Source of the DNA: the human T2T-CHM13v2.0 reference genome, Homo sapiens
Direction: 5' to 3' (one strand)
NCBI RefSeq assembly: GCF_009914755.1
Contig: NC_060939.1
Length of the DNA: 64,000 bases
Within the stretch, counting starts at the first letter, position 1. Every line of letters starts with the position of its first letter. The translations under genes were made by a program, and so were the position numbers. Below, piece after piece: positions 3,506-12,702 of this stretch. Below the pieces are notes generated by a model. It did no database searches and had not been told where the DNA came from. It saw nothing but the letters and a program-made list of their open reading frames with translations.

Positions 3506-4308
3506 TACAATGGAAAACTTCTTGGCACTAATCTGATGAAAGAAGAAACTACGGGAGAATCCCTTTCCCTAAAAGGCTTTCAGTAACAAGATGGCCCTGA
3601 CTCATTCTGGACAGTTCCTCCAAAGGTAGGCCTACAGGTAGAACTCTTTTCTGGCAGCATAGGGGTTTTCCAGAATGAAGGTGTATTTTTTTTTTACTGA
3701 GGCCAGGAAAGGTGAAGAGAATGAAGGGTTCCTAGTGACGATGCAGCAACCAAGTCATTTATGTAATGGAGCCTTATCTGACAGATTTCTAGGATAGAAA
3801 CTCAGTATCCAAGCTCAGGCTTGGCAGACTGAGGTGGGCACCGTCCCCAGGATTGCAGTGTGGATTAGAGGTTTCAACCCCAATCATATTCAACAGCTCC
3901 CTTTCCCCCAACAACCCCTTTTTATAACAGTTGTTTTGTGGTGATTCTTTTACTAATATGATCATGAAAATTAAGTAATTTAGCTTGTGAATGCTCTAGC
4001 TTGGCTGCACTGCTGGTATAAAGAAGTGCCAGACACTTGCAACTGCCTAGGATCTCTGTGAACCAGCGGCATGGAAGACTGAGAGGCACGCTGGATTGAT
4101 GGCTCAGATTCAAGTATGGTATTGCAGGTTCTGGCGTAATTTTCTAAAATGGCGAAAATCTCTAGGTAAAACTCCAAAAATAAAAAACCAACATACATCT
4201 TCCTTTGAGTTACCTGGTAGTTATATTCCTGGAAAATTCAGTGTATATGAGCCTGAGGTAGTAGATGGTCAATAAATACTCAAGAAATAAAAAAATCAAA
4301 AAATATAA

Positions 4309-4653
<345 letters not shown>

Positions 4654-4834
4654 GCTTTTTTATACATTAAGTGTGCTTGCAGAGGACTGCGACCTCTGGC
4701 CCTCGGCCTCTTAATAAATACTCCAAGTGACTTCATTGGAACAACCACTGAGAATCACTTATCTAGAGAGTGGGAAGTTGCTGATCTCATCACTGCATGG
4801 GGTGGGGTGAGGGAAGCAACCCTGCCCTTCCCCT

Positions 4835-4960
4835 TTCTCGGAAAGCAGCTGGCTTTGAAGAAAGAGAAACCAGGACGGGAAAGTCCTGATTTCTAATCTG
4901 AAACAGCGCTTTTTGTCCAGAGACCGGTGACGAGCGACCCTGGGCTCGGGTTTTGATTGG
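4835..4960 (+). promoter_or_regulatory. B2M-like promoter module: GAS, E-box, ISRE, kB, S, X1/X2, Y boxes
   Basis: TTCTCGGAA 4835-4843; CAGCTG 4846-4851; GAAAGAGAAACC 4860-4871; GGGAAAGTCC 4877-4886; CTAATCT 4893-4899; TCCAGAGACCGGTGACG 4916-4932; ATTGG 4956-4960; ISRE-to-Y order matches recalled B2M promoter. Confidence 0.75.
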
Positions 4961-5700
4961 GCAGTTCGGAAACTGTAAAAGCGAATTAAAAGGGTGACAA
5001 GCTAGTGTTTTAGCCTATCCAGTTCCGGGAGTTTGCACGCAGACTCTCTGCTTCGTGACCTTGGCTCTGCTCTGTGGGCGCCGCCCCCAGCCTGGGCGCG
5101 TCCATCGTCGAGTACCTTCTCCTCTGCCTCCCCCTCCCTCTGCTTCTATCTCTCTCCAATTGCCCTCCCTGGCCTGCGGCCGCCCGGTCCTCCTTCCCAG
5201 CCCAGTGCAGCCAGGCACCCGGGTTCGGCTTGCTCAGGTCTCTGTCCGGGACTGGGAAGCCACGGAGGGCCGGGAAAGTGGCACACTCCTGGAGCTCAAG
5301 CTTCCTACTCTCTCATCGCTGAATAACTACCGGGCAGGACTGGGTGGAACAGACAGCATATTTAGGTCATTGATGGGCTGCTGGGTGGATGGAGCTGGAA
5401 AGTGATGGGCACTGCTTTCTGGGGCTGCCCAGGTTCCTTCCGAGGGCTCGCTTTTCCTGGGCAGAGCGGGAAAGAGGAGGGGCAGGCCGGTCGCGAAACG
5501 CAAATAGTCGAGAATAGCGATCCGGGGAGAAGCAGGTGTCTGTGGGGCCCAAGAGAAGTACCATCTCGGTAAGTAGGCCGGTGCATGCAGGGGAGCGCAG
5601 AGCCCTAAGCCCTTCTCTGGGGTCCGCCCGTTTTCCTGCTGGGCTTCTCATTTCCTCACTAGGTTCTACGGTTTGCCGATCTAAATCCAGTTCGTGTCCT
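4920..5700 (+). promoter_or_regulatory. CpG-rich promoter and probable non-coding first exon (donor at 5569)
   Basis: High GC/CpG versus flanks; donor TCG|GTAAGT at 5569-5574. Confidence 0.8.
5043..5113 (+). pseudogene. Relic of B2M exon 1 (signal peptide exon); ATG and donor lost
   Basis: ACT CTC TGC TTC GTG ACC TTG GCT CTG CTC..GCCTGGGCGCGTCCATC GTCGAGT versus recalled B2M ATG TCT CGC TCC GTG GCC TTA GCT GTG CTC..GCCTGGAGGCTATCCAGC|GTGAGT. Confidence 0.65.
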
Positions 5701-5734
5701 ATTGTATTGTGTAACATTTTTGGCAGCTTACATC

Positions 5735-6450
5735 TTTGTTTATTGAGATATAGTTCACAAACCATACAATTAACATATTTAAGTGTACATTTCAGTGGGT
5801 TTTAGTATATTCACAGGGTTGTGTAACCACCTCAATTTTAGGACATTTTCGTCACTCCCAAAAGAAATTTTGTACCAGTTCGGTGTCACTCCCATTTCTC
5901 CCAAACCCCTAGTCCTAGGAAACCACCAATCTTTCTGTCTCTATGGGTTTGCCTATTAGTATTTCATAGAAACAGAAACATATAATATGTGGTCTTTTGT
6001 AACTGGCTTCTGTTTTCAAAGGTCGTCATATTGTAGCAAGGATCAGTTCTTCATTCCTATTTATTGATGAATATTACTCTACTGTATAGATATACTAAGT
6101 TTTGTTTATCCATCTATAGTTAATGGGCATTTGGGTTGTTTCCACTCTTCGGCTACTGAGAATAAAATGTGGTTATCAATATTCATGTATAAATTTTTGG
6201 TGTGGACATAGATTTTCAATTCTCTTGAGTATATATGCAGGAGTGGAATTGCTGGGTGATATGGTAACTCTATGTTTAATCTTTTAAGGAACTACTAGGC
6301 TGTTCTCCAAAGCTGAATGTACCATTGTGTATGAGAGTTCCAATTTTTCTACATCCTCACCAATACTTTTAATCTTTTTTTATTATAACCATTCTAGTGG
6401 ATACGAAATGGTATCTCTTTATGGTTTTGATTTGTATTTCCCTAATGACT
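5735..6450 (-). mobile_element. Old L1 (L1MB/ME-type) 3' end
   Basis: Typical antisense L1M 3' sequence (GGAGTGGAATTGCTGGG..GGTAACTCTATGTTTAA; TTTGATTTGTATTTCCCTAATGACT). Confidence 0.8.
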
Positions 6451-7101: not shown

Positions 7102-7519
7102 AAAGAGAAAGCTCTTAATTGAAGTAGTAACCCTTTCTTGGGTGTTCAATGATATTGTGCTTCTCTTCATGTAAGTGCCCCTTAGATTCCTCCTCCTCAC
7201 TACCATCAGGTCATAGAATAGGGAGGGGCACTCAGTTTCAACAGCAGTGGCCTCCAAATTTTGTTCAAATGCATAACTATAAAAAGTTTTTTGTATACAT
7301 TCTCTATATATAGCTATACATTTTATACATACACTACTATCAGTCTTGATTTAGACATTACTAAAGCTTAATTTTTCTCTCATTTTTTTTCAGTTAAAAA
7401 TTCAGATTGAACTATCTTACAAATGGCTCCCAGAAGATCCACTCCCTGTGGGAACACAGCAGTTGTGGAAGTGAAGACAGGACTGGACCCAGAATAAGGG
7501 TTCAAATATGTGGGGAAAT

Positions 7520-8215
7520 CTGACCTCTAAATTCTTATAAGTCAGAGAGTGACTGAACAACAGCAGTGAGACATCGAAGAGTTTTAATATCTGCTGTAAA
7601 CCTTGGCACAGATCATTTACTTCTCTAAGACTGAATCCAAAAAGCACAATGGAATACTATAATAAGCTGAGACAGCATGGTGAATTCCAGACAAGCCTGA
7701 GCATTCCCTATAGCCAGAGAAGGAGGCCCAACACCTAACATAGCCTTGGATGCAGAACTGATAGAACTTGGGGAAAGTGATGAAGTAGTTGACCTCACCT
7801 GTGAATCTCTAGCACCTGTAGTGATTGACCTAACTCACCGTGACTCTGTAGTGATTATTGAACAAAGGAGGAGGCCAAGAGCAAACACAAGGCCACTCCA
7901 AGACCACACTGGCAGTTGTGTGGTGAACAATGATGAGGAGGGAGTGAAAAGGGACAGAGATGTATGTATAACCAACAGTGCCCACCATAATTCCCTGCAA
8001 AAAAATTTTTTTTGTCATATACTACCTGGTTATATTCAGTGTCAAGTTTGCATGGATGGATGCTCAGAGATTGAACTTAGTATACAACACATCTACTCTA
8101 TAGAATGTGGCCACATCTGTAGTCAGTGCTTCTGCACTTCCTTTACACATACTAACACTGCCCAGTTTGTTTGAAAAAAATCAGCCTCCATCAGTATCAC
8201 TGCAGTTATATATGA
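7520..8215 (+). pseudogene. RNF4 processed pseudogene/retrocopy (SUMO-targeted ubiquitin ligase-like)
   Basis: Intronless frame 7701-8174 with LIEL..VVDLTCESLAPVVIDLTHRDSVVII SIM array and CQVCMDG..ECGH-ICSQC RING; stop at 7698-7700; after a 1-nt frameshift near 8158 it reads CPVCLKKISLHQYHCSYI* (stop 8213-8215), matching RNF4 C-terminus CPTCRKKINHKRYHPIYI*; 5' boundary approximate. Confidence 0.92.
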
Positions 8216-8530
8216 TGTATGCCTTATTGCTCAAGACAGATCCTGTGGCTGGATTTTTCCATGTCTTTGTGCAGGAACTATGGGTTGTTGGCATCCAATG
8301 CTCTGAGCTTAAAAATACTGATTTTTAAAATTGCTATCTGCAGTATATAAGAAACTCTTTGATTTCTCATATGCTCTGAGACTGCTTTTTGTTTCCTTTG
8401 GTTTTATGCTTCAGCTCTGGACTTCAGTTGCCAGAGTGTGCCAGATACTGGGGTCGTCCTTAAAGCAACTTTCCCTTTCTTATAGTCATCAATTTTTAGT
8501 TGGCCACATGTAGACATTCTGGACCACATA

Positions 8531-8536
8531 AATAAA
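8531..8536 (+). terminator. Candidate polyadenylation signal for retrocopy transcript
   Basis: AATAAA ~320 nt after the ancestral RNF4 stop. Confidence 0.4.
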
Positions 8537-8975
8537 GACAACACCCTAGAGATGGTGAAGTAAGTTGTAAACTAAAATCCTAAGCCCCCTAATTGACTGA
8601 ATGGAACCCCTCTTGACCAAAGTGACCCCAGAAAAACCTTAAAACTGAGTTCCTGGCCATGACGGGATGGGAGGTCAGACACGCTTCATTATATCTCCGT
8701 CTCTTTTATGGTTTAGACACAGCAACTGACCAGCATTAATGTCAAAATAAAGATCATAAGGCTGACAGAATAGACCCTTTGTGGCAATAACAAATTATTC
8801 GTAAGATCTAAGGTCATGCCAGGCAAGTGTTATGTCATGCACTCCTACACTTAAAGAATAAACTATGTTCTAACTGCCACAAGATTTTCTATTTATTTAT
8901 TTATTTATTTTTTGAGACGGAGTTCTGCCCTGTCAGTTTTTCTTTTTGTTTAGCAGCTAAACAAGCACCAGCTGA

Positions 8976-11236: not shown

Positions 11237-11482
11237 GAAAGAAAAGAAAAAAGAAAAGAAAAGAAGGAAAGAAAGAGAAAGAGAAAGAAAGGGAGAAAGA
11301 AAGAAAGAGAGCAAGAGAGAAAGAAAGAGGAAAAAGAAAGGAAGAAAGAGAAAGAAACAGAGAGAGAAAGAAAGGGAGAAAGAAAACAGAAAGAGAAAGA
11401 AAGAAAGAGAAAGAAAAAAAGAAAGAGGAAAGAAGGAAGGAAGGAAGGAAAGAAGGAAGGAAGGAAGGAAGGAAGGAAGGGA
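11237..11482. repeat. Polypurine (GAAA/GGAA)n low-complexity tract
   Basis: ~245 nt almost entirely A/G, ending in (GGAA)n. Confidence 0.97.
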
Positions 11483-11717: not shown

Positions 11718-12461
11718 GTATAGAGCCAGCAAAATATCTTCTACAAGAGACAGGGAAGTGGGTAAAGCTTGGTTTGGGGATGAGGGGGTGGTTAGGGAAG
11801 AGTTTAGTAAAGAGATAATGACGGGGTTGTGGGGGAAGGGAAACTCCCATCCGAAGGGACAACATATACAAAGCTGCAGAAGCGTGACATATTTGGGCGA
11901 TCCCAAACACTGGGGAAAGAGCTGTGGTCATTAAGTCTGGACAGCTAGGCAGGAGCTAGACGTGCAAGAAATCATATTGAGTTAGAGGAACTACTGTAAG
12001 AAAAACTGTTTGGCTCTGTGGTGGCTCTTTATAAGTCACTCAGGAGCACAGTGTTGGTACATCTCTCTGCGAGCTAAAACTGCTGAAGAAAGCTGTATGA
12101 AATGAAGCTTTTTTCATCCTGCTTTCTTAGGGCCTGGTGTTTCCCAGGCCGGTGTTACTGTCTCAGAGATAAAATCAGGGCTGCTTCATTGGAATATGAG
12201 AGGTGAACTAGCTCTCTATTAAAGCCACTCAGCTGGTGTCTTGATGGTGTGATGGGATCATGAACAGGGGTGAGGTGGTTATTTTTCATGAGTTAGGCTT
12301 AATATAGGCTGCTGCTGACGTGTATTTCCTCTTTCATAGAGCATCCTTAGTCCAGAAATGGGGAGCTATGAACCTTAAGATTAGACTACTAACTCGAATC
12401 TAAATGAGCTGCCCTTGTCTCCTACAAAAGAAAAGTTGGGCAGGTAGGGTATTCTAATGAG

Positions 12462-12475
12462 GGTTTCTCTTTCTC
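12462..12475 (+). promoter_or_regulatory. TRIM69: ISRE in TRIM69 proximal promoter
   Basis: GGTTTCTCTTTCTC fits RGTTTCNNTTTCY ~230 nt upstream of the ATG; TRIM69 is a known interferon-stimulated gene. Confidence 0.7.
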
Positions 12476-12702
12476 TTAAGCAAATGATGATCAAAGTTAA
12501 CTGACAAACCGTCACGGAATCTGCCAGACCTCACTCTGGCCTTGCTGCTTCTCTCCAGCTCCTGAACTTTTCTTTCTTCCATCATGCTCTGAGCCCATTC
12601 CTTGAAAACTAAAAGGTCCCTGACTCCCAGTCTGCAGCCATCCTGGGCCTGCTGAGCTCTGATTCAAGTGCCTGCCTCTGCCCCTTGGTGGGCTGAAGCT
12701 TC

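What the first reader, a model, noticed from the sequence alone, without database searches (positions are those of the whole stretch)
4835..5700. Upstream CpG promoter looks like a decayed duplicate of the B2M promoter, exon 1 and intron 1 with an MHC-I enhanceosome
Seen: ordered ISRE (4860-4871), kB (4877-4886), S-like (4893-4899), X1/X2 (TCCAGAGACCGGTGACG, 4916-4932) and Y/ATTGG (4956-4960), plus GAS and E-box just upstream. Recalled: the human B2M promoter (..GAAACTGAAAACGGGAAAGTCCCTCTCTCTAACCTGGCACTGCG..GGAGACAGGTGACG..CTGATTGG) aligns collinearly, including spacers. Similarity continues through a signal-peptide exon relic (5043-5113) and patches of intron 1 (TTTAGGTCATTGAT; GGGCAGGCCGGTCGCGAAA; CGGTAAG). 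B2M is the recalled upstream neighbour in the same orientation. Inference: an old partial tandem duplication of B2M left an RFX/CREB/NF-Y plus NLRC5/CIITA, IRF- and NF-kB-responsive promoter that now feeds the RNF4 retrocopy and/or antiviral TRIM69, which would place TRIM69 in the MHC class I regulon. I am not aware of this being described.
Basis: partly seen in the sequence, partly recalled or inferred. Interest (0 to 1): 0.85.

Follow-up and report, generated by a model that had tools for sequence, protein, structure and literature searches.

The report
Old B2M promoter copy driving RNF4BP
About 17 kb downstream of the human B2M gene lies a very old, decayed copy of B2M's promoter, first exon and start of intron 1, which still carries B2M-style immune control sites, is bound by the MHC transcription machinery in published data, and now serves as promoter and first exon of the dead RNF4-derived gene RNF4BP.

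Summary
Window 4833-5573 aligns collinearly with B2M -170..+560 (promoter, exon 1, first ~460 bp of intron 1). Identity is 61% and the HOXD70 score is 7156. No shuffle reached it (0 of 200), and it stands far above off-diagonal bands, 226 other window tiles and six HLA class I promoters. So this is common descent, not motif convergence. ISRE, kB (10/10 identical), S, X1/X2 and Y keep B2M's order; S-to-X2 spacing is 33 bp in both. The start codon is lost, and no later B2M exon was found.

The annotated RNF4BP transcript starts 11 bp from the B2M-TSS-equivalent position. It splices from a donor in intron-1-derived sequence to a processed RNF4 copy. Relatives of that copy are intact in 10 of the 12 fetched mammalian proteins. 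A published ChIP-seq supplement (PMC4243378) lists this site as bound by RFX5, CREB1, NF-Y and ATF1, and by CIITA after IFN-gamma.

TRIM69 control by this element is not shown. TRIM69 has its own ISRE-bearing promoter 7.5 kb downstream, and no annotated isoform starts here. My searches found no description of the B2M paralogy; one paper reports no partial B2M duplicate in human. Interest is moderate.

The parts
4833..5573 (+). Whole block paralogous to B2M -170..+560 (promoter, 5'UTR, exon 1, first ~460 bp of intron 1)
   Evidence: HOXD70 local alignment score 7156, 61% identity over 677 ungapped columns. No shuffle reached it, 0/200. Supported by the band scan, the tile control and MAFFT. No on-diagonal signal beyond either end.
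4835..4851 (+). GAS-like TTCTCGGAA (4835-4843) and E-box CAGCTG (4846-4851)
   Evidence: Regex hits. B2M has no GAS at the aligned place, so these are not part of the shared motif set.
4860..4871 (+). ISRE GAAAGAGAAACC
   Evidence: It aligns with the B2M ISRE region at L002 1850-1867, 9/18 identical. The GAAANNGAAA consensus is recalled.
4877..4886 (+). kB site GGGAAAGTCC
   Evidence: Identical 10/10 to the B2M site at L002 1868. The kB-to-S distance is 18 bp in both.
4893..4900 (+). S-box-like element, core AATCTG
   Evidence: B2M and all six HLA class I-like promoters have AACCT here. S-to-X2 spacing is 33 bp, as in B2M and the HLA-B-like and HLA-C-like promoters.
4916..4934 (+). X1 (TCCAGAGACCGG) directly followed by X2/CRE-like TGACGAG
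   Evidence: X1 is 8/13 and X2 is 5/6 identical to B2M. RFX5, CREB1 and ATF1 ChIP marks are in the PMC4243378 supplement.
4954..4963 (+). Y box, inverted CCAAT (TGATTGGGCA)
   Evidence: ATTGG at 4956. X2-to-Y distance is 28 bp, against 26 in B2M and 25 in the HLA-B-like and HLA-C-like promoters. NF-Y ChIP mark in the PMC4243378 supplement.
4974..4982 (+). TATA-like TGTAAAAGC, about 28 bp upstream of the annotated TSS
   Evidence: Aligns with B2M's TAATATAAG at L002 1962-1970. The role is inferred.
5004..5568 (+). RNF4BP (NR_125376.1) exon 1, non-coding. It is made of B2M-5'UTR-like, exon-1-like and intron-1-like sequence.
   Evidence: Hub annotation table. The B2M TSS (L002 1994) aligns to window 5015. 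CpG observed/expected is 0.62 at GC 0.58 for 4833-5573.
5043..5106 (+). Relic of the B2M signal-peptide coding exon. The start codon is lost (ATG aligns to ACT). The old donor GT is retained at 5107-5108.
   Evidence: 40 of 67 B2M coding positions are identical.
5569..5574 (+). Splice donor GTAAGT used by RNF4BP, lying in B2M-intron-1-derived sequence
   Evidence: One search gives CG|GTAAGT. It aligns with GGTAAG at L002 2548-2553. The exon end comes from the hub table.
7394..8882 (+). RNF4BP exon 2, a processed RNF4-derived copy. The acceptor is TTTTTTTTCAG|. The decayed ORF is at 7746-8174. The last ~314 nt are a high-copy interspersed repeat.
   Evidence: Hub table. Acceptor sequence. ORF matches RNF4 chains in the PDB, 4ap4 at 8.4e-15 and SIM peptide 2mp2_C. 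The parent gene is split into exons on C4. Repeat matches.

Best explanation
Window 4833-5573 is an ancient partial paralog of the 5' end of B2M. A DNA-level duplication, not a retrocopy, placed a second copy of the B2M promoter, exon 1 and the start of intron 1 about 17.5 kb downstream on the same strand. Any later exons are lost or decayed beyond detection.

A processed copy of RNF4 landed about 1.8 kb further on. Transcription from the B2M-type promoter now starts at the equivalent of B2M's TSS. It reads through the dead signal-peptide exon, uses a GTAAGT donor in ex-intron-1 sequence and splices onto the retrocopy. That built the gene RNF4B. RNF4B looks intact in many placental mammals and is a unitary pseudogene (RNF4BP) in human.

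The promoter keeps the B2M layout: ISRE, kB, S, X1/X2, Y and a TATA-like box. In human blood cells it is still open chromatin bound by RFX5, CREB1/ATF1 and NF-Y, and it recruits CIITA after IFN-gamma.

Shown here: the homology, the motif order and spacing, the processed nature of the RNF4 copy, and the RNF4B-type protein group in other mammals.
Taken from print or annotation: the TSS, the splicing and the factor occupancy.
Inferred: the order of events, IRF and NF-kB responsiveness, and that the RNF4B genes of other species use this same promoter.
For: Homology:
- Collinear alignment, score 7156, 61% identity. No shuffle reached it, 0/200, for the whole region, the promoter-only part or the transcribed-only part.
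- On-diagonal bands score 3006 and 3180, against 1575 or less in the other 42 of 44 bands.
- 226 other window tiles reach at most 2559.
- Identity is even across the promoter (62%), exon (62%) and intron (60-61%), as expected from one old duplication.
- The window promoter scores 3707 against B2M but only 1044-1668 against six HLA class I promoters that carry the same kinds of boxes.

Gene structure:
- B2M's TSS aligns to window 5015, against the annotated TSS at 5004. ATG aligns to ACT.
- Strong donor and acceptor sequences.
- The ORF is RNF4-like. The parent is split over at least 5 exon pieces on C4 while the window copy is contiguous.

RNF4B family:
- Ten intact proteins of about 189 aa from whale, hippo, camel, three bats, lynx, dugong, manatee and a lemur group with the human and gelada copies.
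- The supported forks agree with the species groups. These proteins are 63-89% identical to humpback and 51-61% identical to canonical RNF4.
- HGNC calls RNF4BP a unitary pseudogene named from functional orthologs (PMC12807706, passage).

Occupancy (PMC4243378 supplement sheet S1.7, row chr15_45020911_45021455):
- The interval maps to window 4711-5256, centre about 4984.
- RFX5 in B cells 2/2, in naive monocytes 2/2 and in treated monocytes 2/2.
- CREB1, NF-Y and RFX5 in LCL and K562; ATF1 in K562; DNase hypersensitive in both cell types.
- CIITA 2/2 in IFN-gamma-treated monocytes only.

The hub table lists RefSeq enhancer elements at 3925-4912 and 4913-5898.
Against: - No relic of B2M exon 2 anywhere in the window (best tblastn E 0.83). 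No homology past 5573 or before 4833. So the original extent of the duplication is unknown.
- The distal intron part is weak on its own (2/200 block shuffles reach it). Strict 120-bp tiles downstream of 4980 were not significant.
- CT-rich low complexity alone can reach 2559.
- Motif columns are not significantly better kept than spacers (46/70 vs 15/34, Fisher p 0.055). Selection on the boxes is therefore not shown.
- The S-box core has a C-to-T change relative to B2M and all six HLA promoters. X2-to-Y spacing is 2-3 bp longer.
- CIITA was not called in B cells or naive monocytes.
- I could not check that RNF4B in other mammals sits next to B2M or has this promoter.
- Canonical RNF4 is represented in the tree only by a human retrocopy proxy.
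- Mouse NLRC5 ChIP-seq and motif scan list nothing at Trim69 (PMC4374748, passages and 2 held supplement files).
Confidence: 0.8

Rival explanations
1. The element is mainly an upstream alternative promoter or IFN-gamma/CIITA/NLRC5-dependent enhancer of TRIM69, so TRIM69 belongs to the MHC class I regulon.
For: - It lies 7.5 kb upstream of TRIM69 on the same strand (hub table).
- Wong et al. assign the CIITA/RFX5 interval to TRIM69 as the nearest TSS. Their TRIM69 array signal is higher in IFN-gamma-treated than in naive monocytes, 5.62 vs 4.90.
- TRIM69 RNA is among the genes correlated with HLA-I protein in tumours (PMC10629274, passage).
- TRIM69 is IFN-gamma/STAT1 inducible (PMC6102291, passage).
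- RefSeq marks enhancers at 3925-5898 (hub table).
Against: - No RefSeq TRIM69 transcript starts here (hub table).
- TRIM69 has its own promoter with TTTCTCTTTC at 12464-12473, 53-62 bp upstream of its TSS. That is enough to explain interferon induction.
- The disease-associated TRIM69 CpGs map to 11883-12070, not here.
- Assignment in the ChIP paper was by proximity only, and TRIM69 is never discussed in its main text (0 occurrences).
- Co-expression with HLA-I is what any interferon-stimulated gene would show.
Confidence: 0.22
2. In human the element is a functionless leftover. The gene it served is dead, and the factor binding and transcription are neutral residue that has not yet decayed.
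For: - RNF4BP is a pseudogene. The ORF lacks the last RING cysteine pair and the N-terminal part has stops.
- Motifs are not significantly better kept than spacers (p 0.055).
- There is an S-box change and altered X-Y spacing.
Against: - The block still meets CpG-island measures (observed/expected 0.62, GC 0.58).
- The kB site is 10/10 identical and X2 is 5/6 identical after a divergence of about 0.58 substitutions per site.
- Full enhanceosome occupancy and IFN-gamma-induced CIITA recruitment are reported.
- RefSeq lists enhancer activity (hub table).
- None of this proves selected function.
Confidence: 0.35
3. The similarity is convergence or composition. On this reading it is an independent SXY/ISRE/kB promoter in a CpG island that only looks like B2M because both use the same boxes and are GC- and CT-rich.
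For: - A loose S-X2-Y pattern is no rarer than chance genome-wide: 12 hits vs 24 for the reversed control.
- CT-rich sequence at 11278-11379 scores 2559 against B2M intron 1.
Against: - Similarity continues for about 570 bp past the last box, through the dead exon and intron, on the same diagonal.
- Block shuffles that keep local composition never reach it, 0/200.
- Six HLA class I promoters with the same box types score at background.
- Reverse-complement and reversed controls score 1899 and 2042.
Confidence: 0.03
4. The element acts as a downstream shadow enhancer of B2M itself, sharing the same factors.
For: - It has the same factor set as the B2M promoter and lies about 17.5 kb away on the same strand.
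- RefSeq enhancer marks (hub table).
Against: No contact or perturbation data were seen. It has its own TSS and spliced transcript (hub table).
Confidence: 0.1

Closest known systems
Human B2M promoter (ISRE, kB, SXY module) with exon 1 and intron 1
   Same: Same order of ISRE, kB, S, X1/X2, Y and a TATA-like box. The kB site is identical. kB-to-S is 18 bp and S-to-X2 is 33 bp in both. The TSS is at the equivalent place. There is collinear 61% identity over about 740 bp. RFX5 and CIITA occupancy is reported for both.
   Different: No start codon and no later exons. The S core is AATCTG rather than AACCTG. X2-to-Y is 28 bp rather than 26. It has an added GAS-like site and E-box upstream. It drives an RNF4-derived transcript. 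CIITA was called only after IFN-gamma, whereas the B2M interval carries CIITA calls in B cells as well (8 of 8 B-cell marks, CIITA_CEmark).
HLA class I promoters (enhancer A, ISRE, SXY; NLRC5 and CIITA targets)
   Same: Same kinds of boxes and the same S-to-X2 spacing of 33 bp as the HLA-B-like and HLA-C-like promoters. General layout as in PMC3837245 (passages).
   Different: No sequence homology beyond the boxes: scores 1044-1668, which is background. ISRE lies upstream of kB as in B2M. That this order is reversed in HLA class I is recalled, not tested here.
Non-MHC targets of the RFX/CIITA enhanceosome (RAB4B, TRIM26, RFX5, TPP1 and others)
   Same: It is a site outside the MHC bound by RFX5 with CREB and NF-Y that recruits CIITA (PMC4243378, passages and supplement).
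   Different: Here the module can be traced by descent to B2M's own promoter, not only recognised by its boxes.
Retrogenes that gained expression by splicing onto a pre-existing upstream promoter and 5' exon (a class known from retrogene surveys; recalled, no paper read here)
   Same: It is a processed copy with a new upstream non-coding exon, an intron and a CpG-island promoter (hub table).
   Different: The donor promoter is itself a stranded fragment of a duplicated immune gene. I did not find this described in my searches.
B2M duplications in cetartiodactyls (PMC5558954)
   Same: Extra B2M sequence in the same EIF3J-TRIM69 interval.
   Different: Those are young (99-100% identical) and cover whole genes or exons 3-4. 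That BLAST survey reports no partial B2M duplicate in human, mouse, cat, dog or horse (section 21). The human relic is the 5' end and is far more diverged.

Membership tests
Paralog (DNA-level duplicate) of the B2M 5' region | Significant collinear similarity that extends beyond functional motifs into exon and intron sequence | tested here: met
   The transcribed-only part scores 4949 against a shuffle maximum of 3611 (0/200). On-diagonal bands score 3006 and 3180, against 1575 or less elsewhere.
Paralog (DNA-level duplicate) of the B2M 5' region | Similarity specific to B2M, not shared with other promoters of the same functional class | tested here: met
   score 3707 against B2M, 1044-1668 against six HLA class I promoters.
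Paralog (DNA-level duplicate) of the B2M 5' region | Remains of the rest of the gene (exons 2-4) | tested here: not met
   best tblastn E for exon 2 is 0.83; no on-diagonal signal beyond 5573. So it is a fragment, or the rest is lost.
Paralog (DNA-level duplicate) of the B2M 5' region | Presence at the orthologous place in other mammals, needed to date it | not testable with these tools
   No non-human vertebrate genomes are held. K2P of about 0.58 between the copies only suggests an age of the order of 100 Myr or more.
MHC class I / B2M-type SXY enhanceosome module | S, X1, X2 and Y boxes in order, with X1 abutting X2 and a fixed S-X distance | tested here: met
   S-to-X2 is 33 bp, as in B2M and the HLA-B-like and HLA-C-like promoters. 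X1 and X2 are contiguous.
MHC class I / B2M-type SXY enhanceosome module | X-to-Y distance as in known targets | tested here: inconclusive
   28 bp, against 26 in B2M and 25 in HLA-B/C-like promoters. PMC4374748 stresses that spacing matters but also reports outliers in H2-T genes (passage).
MHC class I / B2M-type SXY enhanceosome module | Class I-type S box, the determinant of NLRC5 specificity (PMC4374748) | tested here: inconclusive
   The core is AATCT here and AACCT in 7 of 7 comparison promoters, B2M plus six HLA. 9/12 identical to B2M. The published consensus logo is in a figure I could not see.
MHC class I / B2M-type SXY enhanceosome module | Occupancy by RFX5, CREB/ATF and NF-Y, and recruitment of CIITA | not testable with these tools
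   Not tested here. It is reported in the PMC4243378 supplement, sheet S1.7, and mapped to window 4711-5256.
MHC class I / B2M-type SXY enhanceosome module | Recruitment of NLRC5 and dependence of transcription on it | not testable with these tools
   I found no human NLRC5 ChIP data. The mouse NLRC5 study lists nothing at Trim69.
Processed retrogene with a recruited upstream exon | Contiguous copy of a parent coding sequence that is split by introns at the parent locus | tested here: met
   RNF4 on C4 appears in at least 5 separate pieces. The window copy is in one exon.
Processed retrogene with a recruited upstream exon | Spliced 5' exon not derived from the parent | tested here: met
   Exon 1 (hub table) is B2M-derived. 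Donor and acceptor sequences fit consensus. I did not look at transcript evidence itself.
TRIM69 alternative promoter | A transcript that starts here and splices into TRIM69 exons | not tested
   None of the RefSeq TRIM69 models in the hub table starts here. No RNA data are available to me.

The most novel reading that the evidence does not exclude
RNF4B is a SUMO-targeted ubiquitin ligase that became part of the antigen-presentation and interferon programme before the placental radiation. It did so by capturing a stranded copy of the B2M promoter, so that in most placental mammals a STUbL is switched on together with B2M and MHC class I through RFX, CIITA/NLRC5, IRF and NF-kB. Catarrhines lost the protein but kept the enhanceosome-bound promoter. 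There it now works as an IFN-gamma/CIITA-responsive enhancer for its neighbours TRIM69 and/or B2M.
Probability: 0.2. Interest if true: 0.75.

Novelty: new member of a known kind. Interest (0 to 1): 0.55.

Why it matters
- It adds a site to the short list of MHC-enhanceosome modules outside MHC genes. Its origin can be traced by descent from B2M's own promoter.
- It gives a clear case of a retrogene obtaining regulated expression from a fragment of a duplicated gene.
- It corrects a published statement that human has no partial B2M duplicate.
- It explains an unexplained CIITA/RFX5 ChIP-seq interval that was assigned to TRIM69 by distance alone.
- It raises a testable question: is RNF4B an interferon- and MHC-co-regulated ubiquitin ligase in mammals where it is intact?
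- In human the driven gene is dead, so any medical relevance depends on an unproven enhancer effect on TRIM69 or B2M.

Tried and rejected
- **Whole-genome DNA search with the element.** It found only the element itself. It missed B2M, so it is too insensitive at 61% identity and says nothing about further copies.
- **Global alignment with free end gaps in 120-bp tiles.** Only the SXY tile stood out. The design lets alignments slide off the ends, so I replaced it with banded and local HOXD70 alignments.
- **tblastn of all stop-to-stop peptides of the B2M locus.** The output was swamped by Alu matches. The B2M exon-2 peptide gave only noise.
- **Search for homology beyond both ends.** None found.
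- **Genome-wide loose S-X2-Y pattern.** 12 hits against 24 for the reversed control, so the pattern alone carries no weight. Four of the 12 are the HLA-B-like, HLA-C-like, B2M and this site.
- **DNA search with RNF4BP exon 2.** It hit only a high-copy repeat at its 3' end. A protein search found the parent instead.
- **Motif versus spacer conservation.** p = 0.055, not significant.
- **Supplements of the Raji CIITA ChIP-seq paper PMC4381081.** No TRIM69 or matching coordinates in 6 held files. One file could not be searched, so that paper may still list the site.
- **Mouse NLRC5 paper supplements.** Only 2 small files are held, and they show nothing at Trim69.
- **Literature searches.** None found a description of the B2M paralogy or of RNF4B biology beyond the HGNC naming note. 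One search listed only 15 of 371 matching papers.
- **A score of 2559 on the minus strand at 11278-11379** proved to be CT-rich low complexity.
Full report
**What was checked.** The window is human chr15, and B2M lies just upstream of it. I did not rely on recalled sequence. I fetched the B2M locus from the same assembly (L002 = C15:42517500-42527499; B2M TSS at L002 1994) and read the finding's region.
- GAS-like TTCTCGGAA at 4835
- E-box at 4846
- ISRE GAAAGAGAAA at 4860
- kB GGGAAAGTCC at 4877
- S-like AATCTG at 4895
- X1/X2 TCCAGAGACCGGTGACG at 4916-4932
- ATTGG at 4956

**Is the similarity to B2M real?** Yes.
- blastn with word size 7 gives a plus-strand HSP, window 4858-4960 vs L002 1848-1949, 70/105 identical, E 6.7e-7. 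The remaining strong HSPs are Alu matches at 4601-4660.
- With +1/-1 scoring the promoter alignment scores 29, against shuffles of mean 9.2 and maximum 15 (0/300). The downstream part scores 21 (2/300 reach it) and the exon-1 part scores 16 (3/300).
- With a matrix made for diverged genomic DNA (HOXD70, gap 400/30), one local alignment runs from window 4833 to 5573 against L002 1824-2553. Its score is 7156, with 412 identical of 677 ungapped columns (61%) and 117 gap columns. MAFFT gives the same collinear picture.
- Shuffle controls, number reaching the observed score:
  - whole region 0/200 (block-shuffle maximum 3074)
  - promoter only, 3707: 0/200
  - transcribed part only, 4949: 0/200 (maximum 3611)
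  - intron part, 3503: 0/200
  - exon-1 part, 1868: 0/200, with a shuffle maximum of 1842
  - distal intron, 2061: 2/200
  - reverse-complement and reversed controls: 1899 and 2042
- A band scan of the transcribed part alone puts the signal on the diagonal set by the promoter. Those two bands score 3006 and 3180, against 1575 or less in the other 42 of 44 bands.
- Against real sequence, tiles over the element score 6636, 4949 and 3398. The other 226 of 230 tiles of the window have mean 1372, sd 209, maximum 2559. That maximum is a CT-rich tract.
- An early design using strict scoring in 120-bp tiles showed only the SXY tile as significant. I judged that design uninformative, but it shows that the downstream similarity is diffuse, not patchy-strong.

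**Descent, not convergence.** I located six HLA class I promoters through Pfam MHC_I matches. They carry the same classes of boxes but score only 1044-1668 against the window promoter and 1079-1366 against B2M. That is shuffle background. Window against B2M scores 3707. Identity is even across promoter (62%), exon (62%) and intron (60-61%), with K2P about 0.58. This fits one old duplication that then drifted. A loose S-X2-Y pattern is not rare genome-wide: 12 hits vs 24 for the reversed control. The boxes alone would therefore prove nothing.

**Anatomy.**
- Spacing is kept: kB-to-S is 18 bp in both, and S-to-X2 is 33 bp here, in B2M and in the HLA-B-like and HLA-C-like promoters. X2-to-Y is 28 bp here against 26 and 25.
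- The kB site is 10/10 identical, X2 5/6, S 9/12, X1 8/13, Y 5/10 and ISRE 9/18.
- The S core reads AATCT where B2M and all six HLA promoters read AACCT.
- Motif columns are kept somewhat better than spacers, but not significantly (46/70 vs 15/34, p 0.055).
- B2M's TSS aligns to window 5015, and the annotated RNF4BP TSS is 5004. B2M's ATG aligns to ACT at 5043-5045. The coding part of exon 1 aligns to 5043-5106 (40/67 identical). The old donor GT is still at 5107-5108.
- The block ends at the GTAAGT donor that RNF4BP uses (5569). It aligns to GGTAAG in B2M intron 1. A local alignment ending on a match is partly expected.
- The block is still CpG-island-like (GC 0.58, observed/expected 0.62). 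TRIM69's own promoter is not (0.17).
- No homology extends past either end, and no exon-2 relic exists in the window.

**What it drives.**
- The hub table gives RNF4BP exons 5004-5568 and 7394-8882. The acceptor is a strong TTTTTTTTCAG.
- The ORF at 7746-8174 matches RNF4 chains in the PDB: RING, 4ap4, 8.4e-15; SIM peptide, 2mp2_C.
- The parent RNF4 on C4 is split into at least five pieces, while the window copy is contiguous. It is therefore a processed copy.
- HGNC names RNF4BP a unitary pseudogene after functional orthologs elsewhere (PMC12807706, passage).
- A protein search returned 28 hits among 31 candidates. I fetched 12 named ones of the 28 and left 16 unnamed or fragmentary rows out of the tree.
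- Ten of the 12 are intact proteins of about 189 aa labelled 'RNF4-like' or similar. They come from humpback whale, hippo, camel, three bats, lynx, dugong, manatee and a lemur.
- In a 13-row tree they group with the human and gelada copies. The supported forks agree with the species groups: sirenians 92/91; camel with whale and hippo 90/91; bats 100/99; human with gelada 100/100. The backbone fork is drawn as open.
- They are 63-89% identical to humpback but only 51-61% identical to canonical RNF4.
- Canonical RNF4 is represented only by a near-identical human retrocopy on C1, and synteny in those species was not checked.
- Taken together, RNF4B looks older than the split of Afrotheria from other placentals. 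That agrees in order of magnitude with the divergence of the promoter copy from B2M.

**Published occupancy.** In the supplement of Wong et al. 2014 (PMC4243378, sheet S1.7; row and header read through supplement searches) the interval chr15:45020911-45021455 (hg19) is listed with TRIM69 as the nearest TSS. Its marks are:
- RFX5 in B cells 2/2, naive monocytes 2/2 and IFN-gamma-treated monocytes 2/2
- CREB1, NF-Y and RFX5 in LCL and K562
- ATF1 in K562
- DNase hypersensitivity in both cell types
- CIITA 0/2 in B cells, 0/2 in naive monocytes and 2/2 in treated monocytes ('CIITA_CEmark')

I fixed the coordinate mapping with three CpG probes from an EWAS paper. They fit the window at only one offset within +/-1500 bp. 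The interval is window 4711-5256, centre about 4984, between the Y box and the TSS. TRIM69 is never mentioned in that paper's main text.

**TRIM69.**
No RefSeq TRIM69 model starts at the element (hub table).
- TRIM69 has TTTCTCTTTC at 12464-12473, 53-62 bp upstream of its TSS. This is the same ISRE core as at 4860, inverted.
- The TRIM69 promoter CpGs that co-vary with NLRC5 methylation (PMC5740109, passages) map to 11883, 11898 and 12070.
- TRIM69's correlation with HLA-I (PMC10629274) and its IFN-gamma induction (PMC6102291) are what any interferon-stimulated gene would show.
- An enhancer effect over 7.5 kb remains possible and untested.

**Novelty.**
- A BLAST survey of this very interval states that partial B2M duplicates were not observed in human, mouse, cat, dog or horse (PMC5558954, section 21). 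The relic is too diverged for that approach.
- My searches found no description of the paralogy, and nothing on RNF4B beyond the HGNC note. One search listed only 15 of 371 matches.
- One supplement file of PMC4381081 could not be searched.
- Each ingredient is a known kind of thing: an SXY promoter, a gene-fragment relic, and a retrogene borrowing a promoter. This instance and its traceable origin appear to be new.

**Verdict.** The origin and the link to the RNF4 retrocopy are supported. Enhanceosome binding is already in print in a supplement. The TRIM69 and NLRC5 claims remain open. Interest is moderate: a tidy evolutionary and regulatory story, tempered by the driven gene being dead in human.

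Noticed in passing
window 7746-8174 (+); proteins P0002-P0022: RNF4B looks like an old, separate branch of RNF4. Ten of the 12 fetched proteins are intact at about 189 aa (whale, hippo, camel, three bats, lynx, dugong, manatee, lemur). The human ORF lacks the last RING cysteine pair, and the gelada copy diverges after it. The camel entry is labelled plain 'RNF4' but has the RNF4B-type sequence.
   Followed up: partly
G000 C1:230402599-230403024 (L023 1408-1977): A second, young RNF4 retrocopy with an open 190-aa frame that is almost identical to the translated parent exons on C4.
   Followed up: partly
window 8569-8882: The last ~314 nt of RNF4BP exon 2, including its 3' end, are a high-copy interspersed repeat, 78-82% identical to 39 other scored places in the genome.
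   Followed up: no
window 12464-12473, 11883, 11898, 12070: TRIM69's own CpG-poor promoter carries TTTCTCTTTC, the same ISRE core as at 4860 but inverted, 53-62 bp before its TSS. The three EWAS CpGs reported as 'TRIM69 TSS1500' map to 11883, 11898 and 12070.
   Followed up: partly
window 12360 vs 12526: The hg19 TRIM69 TSS used in the 2014 ChIP-seq table maps to window 12360. That is 166 bp upstream of the current RefSeq TSS at 12526, so distances quoted from older annotation are offset.
   Followed up: yes
window 11278-11379 (-): A CT-rich, microsatellite-like tract gives a spurious score of 2559 against the CT-rich start of B2M intron 1. It is a useful gauge of how far composition alone can go.
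   Followed up: yes
window 4601-4660: The end of an Alu lies directly upstream of the unique stretch that precedes the paralogous block. It matches Alus inside the B2M locus on the opposite strand.
   Followed up: no
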